A stretch of DNA of 57,615 nucleotides from a virus. Numbering within the stretch: the stretch's first letter is position 1; each line of letters starts with the position of its first letter. The translations under genes and the position numbers were made by a program. The notes beneath the pieces are model-generated. The model was not told where the DNA came from. It saw nothing but the letters and a program-made list of their open reading frames with translations, and ran no database searches. The DNA lies in IMG/VR virus record IMGVR_UViG_3300045988_146331, positions 1-57,615 of that record; one strand, written 5' to 3'. Of this stretch, positions 1-57,615 are shown one piece after another.

Positions 1-55
1 GTTTCTGTTATGTTATTTTCTTTTTTTGCCATATTAATTAAATCTCCTTTTTCTT
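1..55. repeat. Terminal overlap: nt 1-55 identical to nt 57561-57615 (circular contig closure; unit genome 57,560 bp)
   Basis: Both ends read GTTTCTGTTATGTTATTTTCTTTTTTTGCCATATTAATTAAATCTCCTTTTTCTT; sequence diverges immediately outside. Confidence 0.97.
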
Positions 56-1166
56 TTAATATTTCTATAATTTCTTTCTTTTTCATGTTCTTTGGGATAT
101 CTATATTATACTTATTCGCTAGTTCTAATAATTCATCTTTTTTATAATCTTCTAATCGTTTAATTCCCATAAAATCATTAAATTTTAATTCAGCATATTC
201 AATATACCATGTTTTATCAATATCGTCAATAGTTAGTTTGTTCGCGTTATCTACAATTGGATTCGGAGGACAATTTGCCAAACTATCTCGCCTCCCATTG
301 GGTTTTATTTTTATGATATTACCACTAGGAACAAGTCCAGCATATATACGATTGTTTTTTTGTAACTCAATATCTCCATTTGGTGATTCTTGTACACATT
401 TTTCATAGGTGGAACCTAAATGAGATATCATTTGAAAACGGAATATATCATTGCAATTATTTATCGTATCTTCAATTGGAATATCAAATAATAATTTCTT
501 TAATAATGCCTCACTTACAATACTTAAGGAATTACTTTTTAAACTCTTTTTGTATGTATATTCAAATACTTTCTTATCCTTATTCCATTTGAAATTATGT
601 TCACCTCGTGTCAATTCTCCACCTTTGTAATTGACTTTGTAATCATTATCTCCGGTTTGAATAATTTCTGCAAAATTGTTAACATCACGAGCAACACATT
701 TTACAACATTGTCTTCTTCTAATTCAAGTCCCGTTAATCGTTGCCAATTATCTAAAATTTTAATAGCATTTTGTTTATATTCTTCATCTATAAAAAATTT
801 GACAGCATCTGTATTAGCTTCGCACATTTCTAAAGTTGGAACACTTTGCAAATCATGTATTAATTGTAGTATTAATAACTGACCGGTTGTGCAAATACTA
901 AATCCTTGTAAATTATCATATAATGGATTGAATGGCGCTCGTAATGCTCCAGTATAAGCATTGATCGGCAACTTTAATCCTTTGTTTACATCGCCCATTG
1001 TAACATCATATTCTCTTAAAAAATCATTTGATAACTTGTTATGTTTCGCTTTTATACGAGTACGTTTTATGTTTATATAAGCATCTTTATCTTTCTGATT
1101 TCTACTAGAATACCCAAATATTTCTATCTCACTTGGATAAAGGGATCCGGAGTGATGCGACATCAT
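1..1166 (-). CDS. Family-B DNA polymerase, catalytic (palm/thumb) half. The ORF runs off the left edge and continues in frame at 57560.
   Basis: Manual minus-strand translation gives MMSHHSGSLYPSEIEIFGY...GLKLPINAYTGALRAP...MCEANTDAVKF...NYKGGE... This contains SLYPS (end of motif A), a KxxxNxYxG motif-B-like segment and an NTDA motif-C-like segment. No in-frame stop between 1166 and 1, which is why it is missing from the ORF track. Confidence 0.8.
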   Translation of the reverse strand, partial: MMSHHSGSLYPSEIEIFGYSSRNQKDKDAYINIKRTRIKAKHNKLSNDFLREYDVTMGDVNKGLKLPINAYTGALRAPFNPLYDNLQGFSICTTGQLLILQLIHDLQSVPTLEMCEANTDAVKFFIDEEYKQNAIKILDNWQRLTGLELEEDNVVKCVARDVNNFAEIIQTGDNDYKVNYKGGELTRGEHNFKWNKDKKVFEYTYKKSLKSNSLSIVSEALLKKLLFDIPIEDTINNCNDIFRFQMISHLGSTYEKCVQESPNGDIELQKNNRIYAGLVPSGNIIKIKPNGRRDSLANCPPNPIVDNANKLTIDDIDKTWYIEYAELKFNDFMGIKRLEDYKKDELLELANKYNIDIPKNMKKKEIIEILKEKGDLINMAKKENNITE

Positions 1167-1272
1167 AATTTAATAACAATCGCTTACCCATTTACATCAC
1201 CCCTCACCATAATATTGCCATTCATTATTCAACTTTAAATCTGTTGGAATTAAAATCACATCTTTCATAATT
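1143..1272 (-). other. Disrupted motif-A region of the polymerase gene (stop-filled coding gap, frame change, partial duplications)
   Basis: Frame A reads ...INYERCDFNSNRFKVE-TAA-TGA-MAILW-TGA-GVM-TAA-MGKRLLLNYDVASLRIPLSK-TGA. Frame +1 reads MMSHHSGSLYPS... The direct repeat AATTATGA occurs at 1272-1265 and 1170-1163. Confidence 0.85.
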
Positions 1273-2103
1273 TATAACACCTTCTTTTAAAAAAGCATGA
1301 CCTCCACCAAGTCCAACTTGAAATAATATCGAACCGAAATCAAGTAGAGGTGGCTCTGGTTTATAATTTAAATCATTGTGTTCGATTAAATCGTCAATAT
1401 AATCTAATACTTCTTTCGGTATTTTACTTTTATCAACTATGTCCGGATATACATATGCGAAATTATCGTCATGTTCAATTCTAGTAGCATTTAGTAATTT
1501 CGCTGTTAAATTCGCATCAGTCAACGACAATGCCTGGGCATAATCCATTTTACCAAGCTTGGCAATGATGAATTTTGATTTATATCTATTAATCAACATT
1601 TCAAATATTGGGAACAAGGCATCAACATCACATCGGCAATAATATAATACTTCTTGAAATTGTTCTTCTGTCCATTTTGTTTTTAAATCAAAAGGAATTG
1701 TTGTTTCTGTAATGTTTAGTCCTAAATTACCTTCTAATTCTTTTAATGATTTTCTAGGTACAATACATGGCATTAAATCCCAGATTATAGGAAGTTTTAC
1801 ATTTTCACATGGTATTTCCCAACCATTCCCACCACCTACAATATAATCACTCAATTCTCGTAATTCTTCTGGTGTAGCTCCGGCTAACCAAAATTTCAAG
1901 ATATATTTATCATATTCATTTGAATTATAACCACATAAAATAGGGTTATTTTTATCAATAAATTGTTGCAATTCATTTGCGCTACAATTATGTGCTACAT
2001 ATTCTTCTCGGGTTGTATATTTTTTAAATACGAATAAACTATCATGCGCAAATGATTCCGCATCGAAGAACCATAATGTATTTAGTAAATCATCAAATGT
2101 CAT
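1225..2103 (-). CDS. Family-B DNA polymerase, N-terminal 3'-5' exonuclease half
   Basis: ExoI FFDAES, ExoII NSNEYDKYIL, ExoIII YYCRCDVDAL. Ends ...GGGHAFLKEGVINYERCDFNSNRFKVE*, i.e. inside the pre-motif-A/motif-A segment. Confidence 0.8.
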   Translation of the reverse strand: MTFDDLLNTLWFFDAESFAHDSLFVFKKYTTREEYVAHNCSANELQQFIDKNNPILCGYNSNEYDKYILKFWLAGATPEELRELSDYIVGGGNGWEIPCENVKLPIIWDLMPCIVPRKSLKELEGNLGLNITETTIPFDLKTKWTEEQFQEVLYYCRCDVDALFPIFEMLINRYKSKFIIAKLGKMDYAQALSLTDANLTAKLLNATRIEHDDNFAYVYPDIVDKSKIPKEVLDYIDDLIEHNDLNYKPEPPLLDFGSILFQVGLGGGHAFLKEGVINYERCDFNSNRFKVE

Positions 2104-5339: not shown

Positions 5340-5413
5340 TGGCACGTTCTTAAGGATTTGAACCCTAATTGATGGTTCTGGAGACCATAGTCCTACCATT
5401 GAACGAAGAACGC
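5340..5413 (-). tRNA. tRNA-Trp (anticodon CCA), CCA end encoded
   Basis: GCGTTCT-TC-GTTC-AATGGTA-GGAC-T-ATGGT-CTCCAGA-ACCAT-CAAT-TAGGG-TTCAAAT-CCTTA-AGAACGT-G-CCA folds as a cloverleaf. Confidence 0.85.
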
Positions 5414-27090: not shown

Positions 27091-27119
27091 TTGACAATCA
27101 CTATCATCTATGTTATACT
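27091..27119 (+). promoter_or_regulatory. Promoter TTGACA-17-TATACT of the large ncRNA/tRNA transcript
   Basis: TTGACAatcactatcatctatgtTATACT. Confidence 0.8.
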
Positions 27120-27125
27120 TATCAA

Positions 27126-27690
27126 GAACCAGTTGACAAATATCAATACAATGATAGCTGGATTTATCATTACCTCTGTAATTAGAGTGCAGATTTTAAT
27201 GGTTAGAGGTGTTACTTTGTGTAAACTAGTAATATAGTATGGAGTGATACGAAAATGATAAAGTGGTGCAATAATAGAGATTAAAAACATCTACAGATCC
27301 GCATGAACTATGAAAGCTAATGTTTTCAGCCTAGAAATAGTAAAGGCATTATGTGAGTAATCTAGTCTTTATACTTCCCTGACAAGAAGAGTAATGGCTA
27401 GACGTCAAGGAAATGTTATGTCGTTGAACCTAGTAATAGGGTATAAGGAGTATGTAGAGTACAAGTAGCGGAAATCGACGTTTTAAGTTTTCAAAAAGGC
27501 AAATGATTTTAAATAATCAAATAAATGTATAAATAATAGGTTCTTATGTCCGTGAAAGTTTGTAGTCATCGTGCTATGCCACAAAAAATCGGCAAGGTAT
27601 ATCCAAGGTCGCTCCTTGGGGAAGAACCTTGTTAGTGGTGGTTGAATATAATTGTTATTATTGCATTAGGGAGAAATCCCCAATTTTATT
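27126..27690 (+). ncRNA. Candidate large (~565 nt) structured non-coding RNA co-transcribed with a tRNA (ROOL/GOLLD-like context)
   Basis: No plausible ORF on the transcribed strand; locally higher GC. Helices: 27172-27177/27205-27210, 27538-27545/27622-27629, 27603-27608/27614-27619. GNRA hairpin GGGA-GAAA-TCCC at 27669-27680. No terminator before the tRNA. Confidence 0.6.
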
Positions 27691-27765
27691 GGCTACATGA
27701 TCCAAAGGTTACGATGCTGGACTGTCTATCCAGAAATTAGAGTTCGATTCTCTATGTGGCCGCCA
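27691..27765 (+). tRNA. tRNA-Asp (anticodon GTC), CCA encoded; unusual U at position 37
   Basis: GGCTACA-TG-ATC..GAT-G-CTGGA-CTGTCTA-TCCAG-AAAT-TAGAG-TTCGATT-CTCTA-TGTGGCC-G-CCA. Confidence 0.75.
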
Positions 27766-50410: not shown

Positions 50411-50486
50411 TGGACGATAGAGTGAGATTTGAACTCACGTATAATGGTGTTGCAGACCATTCCCTTAACCACTTGGGTATCTACCG
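50411..50486 (-). tRNA. tRNA-Cys (anticodon GCA), CCA encoded
   Basis: CGGTAGA-TA-CCC..GGG-A-ATGGT-CTGCAAC-ACCAT-TATAC-GTGAG-TTCAAAT-CTCAC-TCTATCG-T-CCA. Confidence 0.8.
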
Positions 50487-52449: not shown

Positions 52450-53530
52450 CATATAGATGTTTATTCTATATTTCAATATGTTTCCATATTGTTCAGACTA
52501 TATCTTCACCTTTCTCATTTTGAGTTAAGGGACAGGCACTCTTGGGTATATTATATTCTCTTTTGAGTTTCAATACCTAGTCGTTGAGCCTTTACAAATC
52601 ATTTAAATTTGTACTTGGTTGCTGATTGCCTCGGCTAATATTTTTTTTAAATTGTCTTTTGATAAATCATCATTATATTTTAATTTTATTAGTGTTATAT
52701 TATTATTTTTACAAAATTCTTCCTTTATTTTATCTTTGTATCTTTGATATTCCAAAGTGTTTTTACCTTTATGGAAATAAGGTATATATTTATAATGTTG
52801 GATTCCATTATATTCTATTGCTAAATTATATTTTTCAAAATAACAATCTACTCTTAACTTTCTATTTGTTTGTGGATTTTTTAAATCATTAAATTCTTTC
52901 TCCAATTGATAATCACTTTTTAAAATTTCTTTAATAGTATCAAAGCACTTTATAGCACTTAATGAAGTATCACTTCTACTTTTTTCGATATATACACCAT
53001 TTACTAAACCAATAAATTCTTTATAAGAGTTTATCCCTTGTTCTTCTAATAAATAATATATTTTTCTAGCGGATATATTAAATTTTTTTTCTATCTCACC
53101 AATTGAAACTTGATTGTCATTTATATAATTACTTAAATCATCTATTGTTATTTTTTCTCTATTTTTATTTCTATACCATTGAGTTGCACATTTTTTTGAA
53201 CAACATTCTAAATCTTTTCTATAAGATAAAAAGTTTTTTTTACAATTTTTACATATAATATTATATTTCTTCATATTATGATATTTATATTTGCTATAAC
53301 ATTTATCACTACAAAATTGTTTTTTTTGTTTGCTTTCAAACTCTGTGTTACAAATTTTACAAATGTTTTTCATTTAAATCACCTAATAAAATTATACTAC
53401 AATTTAATAAATATTGCAAGGGGTTTCCAGCAGTTCACCTGTTTTTATAAGTAGTATATTTCTATACTAGACTACCTACTGTATTTACTTTTGTAAATTT
53501 ATTCTTTACGGCTATAAAGAATTTCTTTAA
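52450..53530 (-). mobile_element. Group I intron (boundaries approximate) carrying a homing-endonuclease ORF
   Basis: J8/7-P7 core AAGATATAGTC (52506-52496) with partner GACTA (52582-52578). GAAA-capped helices at 53469-53452 and 52490-52475. Terminal G at 52450. The endonuclease ORF sits in a peripheral loop. Confidence 0.7.
52603..53373 (-). CDS. Intron-encoded homing endonuclease: N-terminal CxxC zinc fingers + HTH + C-terminal Vsr/PD-(D/E)XK-like nuclease
   Basis: CKICN...CSDKC, CKNCK...CSKKC; HTH NISARKIYYLLEEQG; nuclease-like LRVDCYF...LAIEYNGIQHY. Confidence 0.65.
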   Translation of the reverse strand: MKNICKICNTEFESKQKKQFCSDKCYSKYKYHNMKKYNIICKNCKKNFLSYRKDLECCSKKCATQWYRNKNREKITIDDLSNYINDNQVSIGEIEKKFNISARKIYYLLEEQGINSYKEFIGLVNGVYIEKSRSDTSLSAIKCFDTIKEILKSDYQLEKEFNDLKNPQTNRKLRVDCYFEKYNLAIEYNGIQHYKYIPYFHKGKNTLEYQRYKDKIKEEFCKNNNITLIKLKYNDDLSKDNLKKILAEAISNQVQI

Positions 53531-56791: not shown

Positions 56792-57592
56792 TTATTCTAC
56801 ACCTTTTTCTTTCAATTCAATACCATTTTCTTGTAGTTTTATTTGTATCTTAATTTTTAATGCTAATAATTCAGAGGTCGTATGTTCATTTTCGACAACA
56901 TCTATCATAGTTGCCTTTCCATAATCATCACCAAGCTTATCTCTCAACGCCCATATTCCTTCGATAATATACTTTTTAAATTCCTCGTTTGTTTTTTCGT
57001 CGTATTGAACGTCATTTACGACTTTTTCAATTACATCTTTTTTAGTATCCTTTGGAATATATGCTGGAACTTTTGGTTCAGCACTAGCCGCTGTTTCTAC
57101 AGCATTTTGATTATCATCCCAGTCAAATCTATTTTTTGGTGAAAAATTAAATTTGAACCAGTTTCTAAACGCCAATGTACATGCACTACTTACACTTTTA
57201 TCCATTGTATCGCTTCCACTTGCAATCATCATATAATGTTTTTCATAACCAGTATCAATATCAGTAAGTGTTGCACGACAACGAACTGTTGATAAATGCT
57301 TTGGTGCGCCAACGGATGGTGTTAAGATATTCTTTTCAAATCTAAGTTCTTCAATTGGTTGAAAATCAAAATCTAGCCCACATTCAATACATAATTCTTG
57401 AACAGCATTATAATATTGACCAATTGAATGATACTCTTCACCACCTAAATTTGAAGTCATTGCTTTATCTAATACGAATTGTTTTTCTTGGATTAGTCGT
57501 CTAAGTTTATCTATTTTATGTAATAATTTTACTTTATCGTTATTAGTTTCTACTATTTTAGTTTCTGTTATGTTATTTTCTTTTTTTGCCAT
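56792..57592 (-). CDS. ERF-family single-strand annealing protein (own SD AAGGAGA + ATG 57592)
   Basis: YHSIGQYYNAVQELCIECGL... and ...GSDTMDKSVSSACTLAFRNWFKFNF resemble the ERF core; paired with the YqaJ exonuclease. Confidence 0.65.
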   Translation of the reverse strand: MAKKENNITETKIVETNNDKVKLLHKIDKLRRLIQEKQFVLDKAMTSNLGGEEYHSIGQYYNAVQELCIECGLDFDFQPIEELRFEKNILTPSVGAPKHLSTVRCRATLTDIDTGYEKHYMMIASGSDTMDKSVSSACTLAFRNWFKFNFSPKNRFDWDDNQNAVETAASAEPKVPAYIPKDTKKDVIEKVVNDVQYDEKTNEEFKKYIIEGIWALRDKLGDDYGKATMIDVVENEHTTSELLALKIKIQIKLQENGIELKEKGVE

Positions 57593-57615
57593 ATTAATTA
57601 AATCTCCTTTTTCTT
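57561..57615. repeat. Second copy of the 55-bp terminal overlap
   Basis: Identical to nt 1-55. Confidence 0.97.

What the first reader, a model, noticed from the sequence alone, without database searches (positions are those of the whole stretch)
1143..1272. Family-B DNA polymerase is broken exactly inside catalytic motif A by a ~100-nt stop-filled gap flanked by partial duplications
The exonuclease-half ORF ends ...GGGHAFLKEGVINYERCDFNS-NRFKVE-TAA-TGA. The same frame resumes 11 codons later, after four stops, as MGKRLLLNYDVASL... and then dies. The long downstream ORF is in the +1 frame and begins MMSHHSGSLYPSEIEIF. Three partial versions of the DxxSLYPS motif are therefore present: DFNS, DVAS and GSLYPS.

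Two simple edits would restore an intact gene:
- Deleting the 102 nt between the direct repeats AATTATGA (1272-1265 and 1170-1163) plus the 10 nt ACTCCGGATC (1153-1144) gives ...KEGVINYDVASLYPSEIEIF.
- Joining the first TCC (1248-1246) to the TCC at 1145-1143, skipping 100 nt, gives ...ERCDFNSLYPSEIEIF.

Possible explanations are:
1. Programmed translational bypass with matched take-off and landing codons, as in T4 gene 60, but about twice as long.
2. A genuinely split two-subunit polymerase.
3. The scar of an excised intron, intein or homing element, leaving a pseudogene.
4. An assembly artefact.

The similar duplication next to the group I intron at about 52.4 kb suggests that mobile-element traffic shaped both sites.
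Basis: seen in the sequence. Interest (0 to 1): 0.75.

Follow-up and report, generated by a model that had tools for sequence, protein, structure and literature searches.

The report
Ten-base hop inside split phage polymerase
A phage DNA polymerase gene was cut in two by a since-decayed homing-endonuclease gene, and its second half carries a 10-base untranslatable insert in the catalytic motif that ribosomes most likely skip, a short-range analogue of the famous T4 gene 60 bypass.

Summary
The sequence features are real and recur identically in independent assemblies, so this is not an artefact.

The proposed 100-nt bypass is wrong, because two separate things were merged.

1. **Split gene.** The polymerase is split into ORF A (2103-1225, minus strand) and ORF B, which has its own Shine-Dalgarno sequence and an ATG at 1191. 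This split is shared by hundreds of related about 57-kb phages, and unsplit homologues also exist. The "stop-filled gap" is the scar of an HNH homing endonuclease gene. A pig-gut relative (L119) still carries the gene intact, and the window has a clean 486-nt internal deletion of it.

2. **Frame break.** Fourteen codons into ORF B, inside DVAS|LYPS, lies a 10-nt insert: CUC CGG AUC C CUU.
   - A Leu codon is followed by CGG, the rarest sense codon in this genome.
   - A second Leu codon lies exactly where reading must resume.
   - Relatives carry other inserts at the same spot, of 3, 4, 5, 7, 10 or 12 nt. Most have matched Leu or Tyr codons and CGG or a stop codon after the first. Two are in frame but contain stop codons.
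   - The leader and the body are each under coding constraint in their own frame.

Best reading (about 0.65, inferred and not demonstrated) is programmed short-range translational bypassing, linked to a homing endonuclease as in T4 gene 60/MobA.

The parts
1225..2103 (-). ORF A, 292 aa: the exonuclease half plus the start of the palm of a family-B-like DNA polymerase. It ends TAA 1227-1225 and is followed by TGA 1224-1222.
   Evidence: It matches phrog_1252 'DNA polymerase' at profile positions 52-342 of 663 with E 4.6e-43. The exact protein is found on at least 20 contigs.
1228..1260 (-). C-terminal extension of ORF A (CDFNSNRFKVE), added by the insertion.
   Evidence: Unsplit homologues continue ...YDRSKSRKVLCNWDFTS after the Y-[DE]-R. 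Relatives have other tails after YDR: GNDLKCEF, NDELHCA, GVEFKCV. In L119 this stretch overlaps the endonuclease ORF start out of frame.
1197..1268 (-). Remnant of an HNH homing endonuclease gene, a 23-codon ORFlet MKDVILIPTDLKLNNEW|QYYGEG*. The N-terminal 17 codons are fused to the last 6 codons, with the deletion junction at about 1218/1217.
   Evidence: The alignment to L119 shows a clean 486-nt deletion with flanks about 92% identical. The intact L119 ORF of 185 aa hits HNH_3 at 28.2 bits (cut-off 24.8), plus NUMOD4 and I-HmuI NUMOD-like.
1196..1205 (-). Shine-Dalgarno sequence GAGGGGTGAT for ORF B. It is formed by the last codons and the stop codon of the endonuclease ORF.
   Evidence: The same SD-plus-start arrangement occurs in every split relative.
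1150..1191 (-). ORF B leader in frame 0: ATG then MGKRLLLNYDVASL. It holds the catalytic Asp strand of motif A (D at 1164-1162).
   Evidence: Across 14 insert-bearing alleles the leader has 407 synonymous and 407 non-synonymous codon differences in its own frame. The other two frames give 28/739 and 69/682. Within-type comparisons are mostly synonymous.
1150..1152 (-). Proposed take-off codon CUC (Leu).
   Evidence: It is conserved in the L119 variant, while the inner gap bases differ.
1147..1149 (-). CGG, a slow-to-decode ('hungry') codon that sits in the A site at take-off.
   Evidence: CGG is the rarest sense codon: 2 of 13,059 codons in ORFs of at least 120 aa. The same position holds CGG in the 5-, 7-, 10- and 12-nt insert types, or UGA in L114.
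1140..1149 (-). 10-nt coding gap CGGAUCCCUU that is absent from relatives. It includes the proposed landing codon CUU (1142-1140).
   Evidence: Alignment with L001 and L002 shows the 10-nt insertion. The L119 variant is CGGAUGUCUU. CUU is the first CUN triplet 3' of the take-off codon (read from the sequence).
1..1139 (-). ORF B body in the +1 frame, resuming at UAU 1139-1137 as YPSEIEIFGYSSRNQ.... It carries motif B (KLPINAYTG) and motif C (ANTDAV).
   Evidence: It matches phrog_1252 positions 357-658 with E 4.2e-62. Own-frame codon differences are 917 synonymous and 1655 non-synonymous, against 245/2457 and 183/2494 in the other frames. Foldseek top hits are family B polymerases.
56792..57560 (-). 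Continuation of ORF B across the circular junction: a Rho_N/SAP-like motif and a C-terminal domain of about 260 aa. The stop codon is at 56794-56792.
   Evidence: There is a weak Foldseek match of the C-terminal domain to the RAD52 ring.
1129..1131 (-). Frame-0 stop TGA. It would end a 20-aa peptide if no recoding occurs.
250..1640 (-). About 1.4-kb tract, centred on the junction, that is only 57-88% identical to the otherwise 96-100% identical phage L001. This marks an allele replacement or co-conversion tract.

Best explanation
**What it is.** The gene is a family-B-like phage DNA polymerase. A free-standing HNH homing endonuclease gene (HEG) split it just upstream of motif A.

**What the element did.**
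- It gave ORF A a short new C-terminal tail.
- Its 3' end supplies the Shine-Dalgarno sequence and start codon of ORF B.
- ORF B therefore begins with the strand that carries the catalytic Asp (MGKRLLLNYDVASL).
- In this genome the endonuclease gene has since lost 486 nt, which leaves the 'stop-filled gap'.
- ORF A and ORF B are made as two polypeptides that assemble into the enzyme.

**The 10-nt insert.** Within ORF B, 10 nt (CGGAUCCCUU) sit between the Leu and Tyr codons of DVASLYPS and break the frame.

**Proposed mechanism (inferred).**
1. Ribosomes start at AUG 1191 and read 14 codons.
2. They stall with peptidyl-tRNA-Leu on CUC (1152-1150) and the very rare CGG in the A site.
3. The tRNA un-pairs, the mRNA slips 10 nt, and the tRNA re-pairs with CUU (1142-1140).
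4. Decoding resumes at UAU and produces an intact DVASLYPS motif.

**Why the insert exists (inferred by analogy with T4 gene 60/MobA).** It interrupts the conserved DNA that the endonuclease recognises. This protects carrier genomes from self-cleavage, and the insert persists after the endonuclease gene decays.

**Shown versus inferred.**
- Shown: the split, the HEG scar, the insert, its recurrence in independent assemblies, the codon rules, and the frame-specific constraint.
- Inferred: the hop itself, its efficiency, and the immunity role.
For: 1. **Not an artefact.** The junction is identical in independent assemblies and occurs on about 40 contigs.

2. **Split and endonuclease.**
   - Unsplit homologues, split relatives, and relatives with an HNH_3/NUMOD4 gene between the halves all exist.
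   - The window aligns to L119 with a clean 486-nt deletion.
   - A 1.4-kb divergent tract centred on the site sits in an otherwise 96-100% identical genome.

3. **A recurring class of inserts at the same two codons.**
   - 56 of the 120 nearest ORF B clusters have a disrupted motif A.
   - DNA shows inserts of 3, 4, 5, 7, 10 and 12 nt.

4. **Matched codons.**
   - Leu to Leu: CUC..CUU (+10) in the window and L119; CUU..CUA (+12) in L034 and L126; CUG..CUU (+7) in L086 and L112; CUG..CUA (+7) in L114; CUC..CUA (+4) in L009 and L039.
   - Tyr to Tyr: UAU..UAU (+7) in L117.
   - In each case the landing triplet is the first cognate triplet downstream.
   - The Ser-to-Ser alternative fails in L119 and L118.

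5. **Poor A-site codon.**
   - CGG follows the take-off codon in five insert types, and UGA or UAA in four.
   - CGG is the rarest codon here, 2 of 13,059.
   - Within one lineage the position toggles between CGG (L086/L112) and UGA (L114) on an identical leader.

6. **In-frame inserts with stops.** Two types are in frame but contain a stop (L091 UAU UAA CCA; L034 CUU CGG UGA GGA CUA) and have no nearby start codon. The unifying property is therefore 'not decoded', not 'frameshifted'.

7. **Frame-specific purifying selection.** The constraint switches frame exactly at the insert. The gap interior varies freely: AUCC versus AUGU changes the residue that would be the invariant Ser if the +1 frame were read there.

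8. **Take-off hairpin in the 12-nt type.** It forms CCUCAC-UUCG-GUGAGG at -18.1 kcal/mol, z -4.4, as at the gene 60 take-off site.

9. **Link to the endonuclease.** Inserts are enriched in genomes with the endonuclease: 9 of 14 against 7 of 43 unique architectures, Fisher p 0.0012, not corrected for phylogeny.

10. **Architecture matches the MobA/gene 60 element.** It shares the C-terminal and N-terminal extensions, the homologous replacement segment, the bypass cassette, and the stepwise loss of the endonuclease.
Against: - There is no experimental evidence for the protein product. Everything rests on comparative sequence.
- The window-type gap has no significant RNA structure (-8.6 kcal/mol, z -1.2).
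- Only 14 codons precede take-off, so a gene-60-like nascent-peptide signal cannot operate.
- The commonest relative type (5 nt, CUY CGG UA|UAY) has GUA rather than CUN as its landing triplet. The UAA and UAAC types also have no cognate landing triplet. The rule is therefore not universal, and other mechanisms may act there.
- Some endonuclease-bearing alleles have no insert, which weakens the self-immunity rationale.
- The host and its tRNA-Arg(CCG) supply are unknown.
- Matched codons could partly be a by-product of how small insertions arise, through local duplication.
Confidence: 0.65

Rival explanations
1. Simple +1 ribosomal frameshifting of the Ty1 or prfB type at CUC-CGG. Part of the insert is decoded, which gives DVASL-GS-LYPS with three extra residues in motif A.
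For: The insert is 10 nt, a net +1 shift. A rare CGG in the A site after a Leu codon is a classic +1 stimulator. The 4- and 7-nt types are also net +1.
Against: It would place 1-3 variable extra residues between the catalytic Asp and the steric-gate Tyr, with a different number in each lineage. It cannot explain the in-frame 3-nt and 12-nt inserts that contain stop codons, nor the 5-nt (+2) type. CUC to UCC re-pairing is poor. It does not explain why a second Leu codon always sits exactly before UAU.
Confidence: 0.12
2. No recoding takes place. ORF B is made from the internal AUG (1166) without the motif A Asp. The 20-aa leader peptide is then either a separate third piece or irrelevant.
For: Gene callers annotate it this way (P0001). 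GAUG of the D-V codons always gives an AUG in the +1 frame.
Against: There is no Shine-Dalgarno sequence before AUG 1166, while a strong one precedes AUG 1191. The 5-nt, 3-nt and 12-nt types have no usable in-frame start codon after the insert. The leader is under amino-acid-level constraint in its own frame. It is homologous to the strand that carries the catalytic Asp in unsplit enzymes.
Confidence: 0.08
3. The polymerase is inactivated (a frameshift pseudogene) in these phages, and they replicate by other means.
For: On face value this is a frame-breaking indel in a catalytic motif. No experiment shows activity.
Against: An ORF B of about 640 aa stays open and under purifying selection downstream of the insert in every lineage. 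About 47% of the nearest clusters carry such inserts, and they are found on near-complete 55-59 kb contigs from many samples. The leader has not decayed.
Confidence: 0.08
4. The insert is removed from the transcript by a micro-intron, editing, or nuclease-plus-ligase repair before translation.
For: It would also explain the in-frame stop-containing inserts. The 12-nt type is a tight hairpin.
Against: No mechanism is known for excising 3-12 nt from bacterial or phage mRNA. No Rfam family matches the region. It does not explain the matched codons or the CGG/stop rule.
Confidence: 0.04
5. One reading: one 100-nt bypass from TCC 1248-1246 to TCC 1145-1143 joins ORF A directly to the long ORF as ...CDFNSLYPS.
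For: The codons match and the net shift is +1.
Against: The codon after the take-off codon is an ordinary AAC. ORF A's tail is a variable extension found in all split relatives, including those whose ORF B is intact. ORF B has its own Shine-Dalgarno sequence and start codon, and a conserved leader. In L119 the two TCCs are about 590 nt apart, the second one is not conserved (TGT), and an endonuclease gene lies between them.
Confidence: 0.01

Closest known systems
Phage T4 gene 60 translational bypass as part of the MobA (HNH) mobile element in topoisomerase Topo2L. Sources: Manning & Atkins, bioRxiv 10.1101/2022.08.31.505936; Bonocora et al. 2011, as cited there.
   Same: - An HNH homing endonuclease gene splits an essential, conserved replication gene at a catalytic metal-binding motif.
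- It adds a C-terminal tail to ORF 1.
- It adds an N-terminal segment plus a homologous replacement segment to ORF 2.
[quoted passage not shown]
- One variant (L034) has a UUCG-tetraloop hairpin over the take-off codon.
- The endonuclease decays while the cassette stays, and elsewhere the cassette is lost while the split stays.
   Different: - The target gene is PolB rather than Topo2L.
- The phage group is different: about 57-kb, 29.5% GC gut and rumen phages, not Myoviridae.
- The gap is 3-12 nt, against 20-50 nt.
- Take-off is on Leu or Tyr, not Gly or Asp.
- Take-off occurs only 13-15 codons after the start, so there is no long nascent-peptide signal.
- The window type has no clear hairpin.
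- Homology between the endonucleases or the cassettes was not tested.
- Bypass has not been demonstrated experimentally.
Short-range 'stop-hops' and hungry-codon hops seen with synthetic or over-expressed genes in E. coli. Sources: Weiss et al. 1987 and later work, summarised in Atkins et al. 2016, PMC5009743.
   Same: Peptidyl-tRNA un-pairs at a codon that is followed by a stop or slow codon. It then re-pairs with a matching codon a few nucleotides downstream. The distances are comparable.
   Different: Those events are low-efficiency, non-programmed events in artificial constructs. The review states that no natural in-frame stop-hop is known. Here the sites are natural, conserved, and sit in an essential gene.
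'byp' elements in mitochondrial genes of the yeast Magnusiomyces capitatus (Lang et al. 2014, as summarised in PMC5009743).
   Same: They are short GC-rich inserts in AT-rich genes that are rendered harmless by bypassing. An unused codon sits in the A site, and the take-off and landing match is sometimes imperfect.
   Different: They are 27-55 nt long, occur at many sites across many genes, are mitochondrial, and are not linked to a homing endonuclease.
Genes-in-pieces created by free-standing homing endonucleases, for example Aeromonas phage Aeh1 nrdA split by mobE (cited).
   Same: The endonuclease inserts inside an ORF, and the two halves carry added tails and reassemble into an active enzyme. 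This matches the ORF A/ORF B split here.
   Different: Those cases have no frame-breaking cassette in the downstream half.

Membership tests
T4 gene 60 / MobA-type programmed translational bypass | The coding sequence is interrupted by a short segment that cannot be decoded (a stop and/or frameshift), while both flanks stay under coding constraint. | tested here: met
   There is a 10-nt insert relative to L001 and L002. The leader and the body are each constrained in their own frame.
T4 gene 60 / MobA-type programmed translational bypass | [quoted passage not shown] The landing site is the first cognate triplet in the gap. | tested here: met
   The window has CUC to CUU at +10, conserved in L119 although the gap interior differs. 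The rule holds in 8 of 11 insert types and does not hold in the 5-nt, UAA and UAAC types.
T4 gene 60 / MobA-type programmed translational bypass | [quoted passage not shown] | tested here: met
   CGG follows the take-off codon. CGG accounts for 2 of 13,059 codons and is the rarest sense codon. Relatives have CGG, UGA or UAA at this position.
T4 gene 60 / MobA-type programmed translational bypass | A take-off stem-loop includes the take-off codon. | tested here: inconclusive
   The window type folds weakly, at -8.6 kcal/mol with z -1.2. The 12-nt type (L034) folds strongly, at -18.1 kcal/mol with z -4.4 and a UUCG loop.
T4 gene 60 / MobA-type programmed translational bypass | A nascent-peptide signal lies about 14-30 residues upstream of take-off. 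| tested here: not met
   Only 14 codons lie between the start codon and the take-off codon, so no such signal is possible.
T4 gene 60 / MobA-type programmed translational bypass | The cassette belongs to an HNH homing-endonuclease element that splits the host gene and adds C-terminal and N-terminal extensions. | tested here: met
   The window holds the endonuclease remnant, and L119 holds the intact HNH_3/NUMOD4 gene at the same place. The extensions are seen by comparison with unsplit homologues.
T4 gene 60 / MobA-type programmed translational bypass | The element is inserted in topoisomerase Topo2L of Myoviridae and shows sequence homology to MobA and the gene 60 cassette. | tested here: not met
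   The target is a PolB-like gene in unrelated phages. Homology of the endonuclease to MobA was not tested.
T4 gene 60 / MobA-type programmed translational bypass | A single polypeptide spanning the gap has been demonstrated. | not testable with these tools
   This needs mass spectrometry, reporter assays or ribosome profiling.
Family B DNA polymerase | Motif A is DxxSLYPS, motif B is KxxxNSxYG, and motif C is DTD. | tested here: met
   After the hop the sequence reads DVASLYPS. Motif B is KLPINAYTG and motif C is ANTDAV. K68, N72, Y74, G76, N121, T122 and D123 are invariant in alignment A3. Motif C is NTD rather than DTD.
Family B DNA polymerase | The fold or a profile matches known PolB enzymes. 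| tested here: inconclusive
   The Foldseek top 27 hits are archaeal family B polymerases, with E from 6.6e-5 and probability 1.0. However, the model is weak (pLDDT 61) and TM is about 0.15. PHROG 1252 'DNA polymerase' matches strongly. There are no Pfam hits and no PDB sequence hits.
Family B DNA polymerase | The N-terminal half carries the 3'-5' exonuclease motifs Exo I (DxE), Exo II (NxxxFD) and Exo III (YxxxD). | tested here: met
   ORF A contains FFDAESF, GYNSNEYDKYIL and YYCRCDVDAL, read from the translation. This is a motif-level reading only.
Group I intron or intein interrupting a polymerase gene | A ribozyme core or intein splicing blocks lie between the exons or exteins. | tested here: not met
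   No Rfam match better than E 0.3 was found in 900-1500. The gap is about 100 nt. The intervening ORF in relatives is a free-standing HNH gene with no intein blocks.
Gene split by a free-standing homing endonuclease (genes in pieces) | There are two separately initiated ORFs, unsplit homologues exist, and an endonuclease gene sits at the split point in some genomes. | tested here: met

The most novel reading that the evidence does not exclude
A second, independent family of homing-endonuclease-linked translational bypass cassettes exists in nature, in the PolB gene of a large clade of gut and rumen phages.

- The coding gaps are only 3-12 nt.
- The family includes natural in-frame 'stop-hops', such as UAU UAA CCA and CUU CGG UGA GGA CUA.
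- The cassettes work within the first 15 codons of the ORF, so they do not need the long nascent-peptide signal of gene 60.
- The many natural variants (Leu or Tyr take-off; CGG or stop; with or without a UUCG hairpin) would define the minimal requirements for ribosome hopping.
- They would also show that bypass cassettes are a general way for mobile endonucleases to immunise essential genes without altering the protein.
Probability: 0.55. Interest if true: 0.88.

Novelty: new variant of a known kind. Interest (0 to 1): 0.8.

Why it matters
**The gap in the field.** Efficient programmed bypassing has essentially one studied bacterial or phage example, T4 gene 60. Its 2022 comparative study found homologues only in topoisomerase genes and called the cassette unique. 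The 2016 review notes that shorter natural counterparts had long been expected but not found, and that no natural in-frame stop-hop is known.

**What this locus and its relatives offer.**
- About a dozen natural variants are available.
- About half of the 120 nearest protein clusters carry a disrupted motif A.
- This makes a ready comparative series for testing what a ribosome needs in order to hop: the codon pair, the A-site codon, the hairpin and the distance.
- It also allows a test of whether such inserts protect against homing endonucleases.

**Practical consequence.** Gene callers mis-annotate the polymerase of these phages as starting at MMSHH..., MGCRLTS..., MYLAFIN... or MCHPS.... All of these lack the catalytic Asp.

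Tried and rejected
- **Megablast of the locus against 50,697 phage records:** no match. The nearest annotated relatives are Enterococcus phage polymerases at about 30% amino-acid identity. There is no cultured representative to consult.
- **Exact search for the insert in IMG/VR:** none found. It was found instead through exact-protein look-ups.
- **Family assignment by sequence:** Pfam gave nothing for either half or for an unsplit homologue. PDB phmmer and hmmsearch also gave nothing.
- **Host identification via genome contigs:** the scan returned only whole-phage contigs binned into MAGs of different phyla. The host and its tRNA set therefore remain unknown.
- **tRNAs in the window:** they are Trp, Asp and Cys. 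There is no Leu or Arg tRNA and no tRNA with an odd anticodon loop.
- **RNA structure for the window-type gap:** not significant.
- **Ser-to-Ser hop (UCA to UCC):** considered and rejected, because the second Ser triplet is absent in L119 and L118.
- **DFNS as a relic half of motif A, and AATTATGA as an insertion-site duplication:** both rejected.
- **The '29-nt insert' rows:** these are false positives of my regular expression in a different part of a more distant subfamily and were ignored.
- **Literature searches:** no description of this PolB system turned up in the held library. The library is incomplete.
Full report
**Observation**

The gene lies on the minus strand.
- ORF A (2103..1225, 292 aa) ends ...GGGHAFLKEGVINYERCDFNSNRFKVE, followed by TAA and TGA.
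- The same frame restarts at ATG 1191 as MGKRLLLNYDVASLRIPLSK*.
- The +1 frame is open from ATGATG 1166 (MMSHHSGSLYPSEIEIF...) to window position 1.
- The window ends in a 55-nt direct repeat of its start, so it is a circular assembly. ORF B runs on to a stop at 56794-56792.

The 201 nt around the site are identical in assemblies from two other samples. The exact ORF A is on at least 20 contigs. ORF B clusters beginning MMSHHSG[SC]LYPS stand for about 40 contigs. An assembly artefact is therefore excluded.

**What the gene is**

- ORF A matches PHROG 1252 'DNA polymerase' at positions 52-342. The long ORF matches positions 357-658, so the two are co-linear.
- Pfam and PDB sequence searches find nothing.
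- ORF A shows Exo I, II and III-like motifs.
- ORF B has invariant KLPxNAYTG and NTDA motifs.
- A modest AlphaFold model of an ORF B relative has archaeal family B polymerases as its top 27 Foldseek hits.

Calling it a divergent family-B-like polymerase, with DxxSLYPS as motif A, is reasonable.

**The split is ancestral and shared**

- A closely related 57-kb phage (L001) is also split. Its ORF A ends ...KYDRGNDLKCEF*. Its ORF B starts MRVLENWDVSSLYPS, overlaps the ORF A stop, and has an intact motif A.
- All 120 best ORF B homologues are 627-680 aa (apart from one 355-aa entry, P0067), which is ORF B size and not full-length polymerase size.
- Unsplit polymerases also exist in the clade, reading ...GVYYYDRSKSRKVLCNWDFTSLYPN (L013, L018, L023, L031 and others).

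The window's ...NYER and KRLLLNYDVASL are therefore consecutive segments of the ancestral protein. AATTATGA is an ordinary frequent word.

**The gap is a homing-endonuclease scar**

- In many relatives an HNH_3/NUMOD4 (I-HmuI-like) endonuclease gene of 170-204 aa sits between ORF A and ORF B.
- Other relatives have a GIY-YIG gene, a C5 methylase, or a PAPS-reductase-like gene there.
- L119 and L120 are pig-gut contigs whose ORF B is 87% identical to the window's. They carry a 185-aa HNH gene that starts inside the ORF A tail and ends ...RWRYYGEG*, just before the ORF B start.
- The window aligns to L119 with one clean 486-nt deletion. This leaves MKDVILIPTDLKLNNEW|QYYGEG* at 1268-1197.
- The last codons of the endonuclease gene are the Shine-Dalgarno sequence of ORF B (GAGGGGTGAT, 1205-1196).
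- The window and L001 are 96-100% identical over about 9 kb, except for a 1.4-kb tract (about 1640-250) centred on this site at 57-88% identity. That pattern is what endonuclease-driven co-conversion, or allele replacement, produces.

**The real anomaly: a 10-nt insert in motif A**

Relative to L001 and L002 the window has 10 extra nucleotides inside DVAS|LYPS. The reading is GAU GUC GCA UCA CUC CGG AUC C|CUU UAU CCA.

This is not a private lesion. Among the 120 nearest ORF B clusters, 56 have a called N-terminus that lacks the motif A Asp (MMSHHSG.., MGC..VYPN, M[YF]LAFINPN, MCHPSLYPN).

The DNA of representatives shows the following:
- ORF B always starts at a strong Shine-Dalgarno sequence with M(A)R[VI]LENWDVxSL in frame 0.
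- A short insert follows at the Leu/Tyr codons.
- The rest of the polymerase continues in the frame dictated by the insert.

| Insert length | Sequence | Loci |
|---|---|---|
| 3 nt | UAU UAA\|CCA | L091 |
| 4 nt | CUC R\|CUA | L009, L039 |
| 4 nt | UAU UAA C\|CCA | L007 |
| 5 nt | CUY CGG UA\|UAY | L005, L118, L121, L124, L127 |
| 7 nt | CUG CGG A\|CUU | L086, L112 |
| 7 nt | CUG UGA A\|CUA | L114 |
| 7 nt | UAU UGA G\|UAU | L117 |
| 10 nt | CUC CGG AUC C\|CUU | window |
| 10 nt | CUC CGG AUG U\|CUU | L119 |
| 12 nt | CUU CGG UGA GGA\|CUA | L034, L089 |
| 12 nt | ...UGA GAU\|CUA | L126 |

**Why bypassing is the best reading**

1. **Matched codons.** In 8 of 11 types, the last frame-0 codon before the insert and the triplet just before the resume codon are the same amino-acid codon family (CUN/CUN or UAU/UAU). 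That triplet is also the first such triplet downstream. When take-off moves from Leu to Tyr (L117), the landing triplet moves with it.
2. **Poor A-site codon.** The codon after the take-off codon is CGG or a stop in nine types. CGG is the rarest sense codon in this genome, at 2 of 13,059. Within one lineage with an identical leader it alternates between CGG and UGA.
3. **In-frame inserts with stops.** Two types are in frame yet contain stop codons and have no downstream start codon. The common property is therefore that the insert is not decoded.
4. **Free variation inside the gap.** The window and L119 differ inside the gap (AUCC versus AUGU) while the take-off codon, CGG and the landing codon are kept. 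In the +1 frame this change would replace the invariant motif A Ser with Cys.
5. **Coding constraint switches frame at the insert.**
   - Leader: 407 synonymous and 407 non-synonymous codon differences in frame 0, against 28/739 and 69/682 in the other frames.
   - Body: 917/1655 in its own frame, against 245/2457 and 183/2494.
   - Within single insert types the leader differences are mostly synonymous, for example 5:0 for L007 against L117.
6. **Hairpin in the 12-nt type.** It forms a perfect hairpin with a UUCG tetraloop over the take-off codon, at -18.1 kcal/mol and z -4.4.

**Comparison with the known system**

Manning and Atkins (bioRxiv 10.1101/2022.08.31.505936) describe the gene 60 cassette as part of the MobA HNH element. 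They report that the element:
- splits Topo2L at a metal-binding site;
- adds C- and N-terminal extensions and a homologous replacement segment;
- protects the carrier from MobA nicking;
- decays stepwise: first the endonuclease is lost, then the bypass, while the split is retained, and occasionally the halves re-fuse.

Every one of these architectural points has a counterpart here. Inserts are also enriched in endonuclease-bearing architectures: 9 of 14 against 7 of 43, p = 0.0012, not corrected for phylogeny.

The differences are substantial:
- The gene and the phage group are different.
- The gaps are 3-12 nt rather than 20-50 nt.
- Take-off uses Leu or Tyr codons.
- Take-off happens only about 14 codons after initiation, so no long nascent-peptide signal can act.
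- The window type has no significant structure.

This is therefore an analogue and not a member of the gene 60 family. Mechanistically it is closer to the short 'stop-hops' and hungry-codon hops known from artificial constructs in E. coli. The 2016 review says natural in-frame examples of those are unknown.

**Weak points**

- Nothing here shows the protein.
- The commonest relative type (5 nt) has GUA, not CUN, before the resume codon. The UAA and UAAC types also lack a cognate landing triplet.
- Some endonuclease-bearing alleles have no insert.
- The host is unknown.
- The rivals are +1 frameshifting with extra residues, internal initiation without the Asp, a pseudogene, and RNA-level removal. 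Each explains less of the comparative pattern, but together they keep about a third of the probability.

**Verdict**

It is wrong on the mechanism's geometry, which is 10 nt within ORF B and not 100 nt between the ORFs. The locus is most likely a new short-range variant of endonuclease-linked translational bypassing, and it is well worth experimental testing.

Noticed in passing
window 27105-27700 (+), 27691-27765 (+): A full-length ROOL RNA (Rfam RF03087, 125 bits against a cut-off of 99) is immediately followed by tRNA-Asp(GTC) and slightly overlaps it. Two further tRNAs are present: Trp(CCA) at 5340-5413 (-) and Cys(GCA) at 50411-50486 (-).
   Followed up: no
window 52476-52537 (-) and 52603-53373 (-): There is a partial, sub-threshold match to the 3' part of the group I intron model: 26 bits, E 6e-4, gathering score 50. 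Next to it lies a 256-aa ORF whose C-terminus (...VDCYFEKYNLAIEYNGIQHY...) looks endonuclease-like. The exons and the splice sites were not worked out.
   Followed up: partly
window 56792-57560 (-) continuing from 1-150 (-): ORF B does not stop at the end of the polymerase. It continues in frame through a Rho_N/SAP-like motif into a domain of about 260 aa. In the model of a relative this domain gives weak Foldseek matches to the RAD52 ring (8rj3, E 9e-3, TM 0.44 on the target). The next gene is YqaJ-like exonuclease. This may be a polymerase fused to a Rad52-like annealase.
   Followed up: partly
window 1-55 and 57561-57615: A 55-nt exact terminal direct repeat is present. The window is a circularly closed assembly of about 57,560 bp.
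   Followed up: yes
related loci L078, L021, L011, L056, L061, L111, L034, L035, L024 (between ORF A and ORF B): The split point is a general insertion hot-spot. Different relatives carry different genes there:
- a C5 cytosine methylase (L078, L021);
- a PAPS-reductase-like gene (L011, L111, L061);
- a GIY-YIG endonuclease (L111);
- a Cys-rich ORF of about 220 aa with no Pfam match (L034, L035, L024).
   Followed up: partly
window about 250-1640 against L001: The window and IMG/VR contig UViG_3300045988_155113 are 96-100% identical across about 9 kb, except for a 1.4-kb tract centred on the polymerase junction at 57-88% identity. This is a sharply bounded allele replacement.
   Followed up: yes
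L121 1084-2372: One relative carries two different HNH endonuclease genes in tandem between ORF A and ORF B, together with the 5-nt insert.
   Followed up: no
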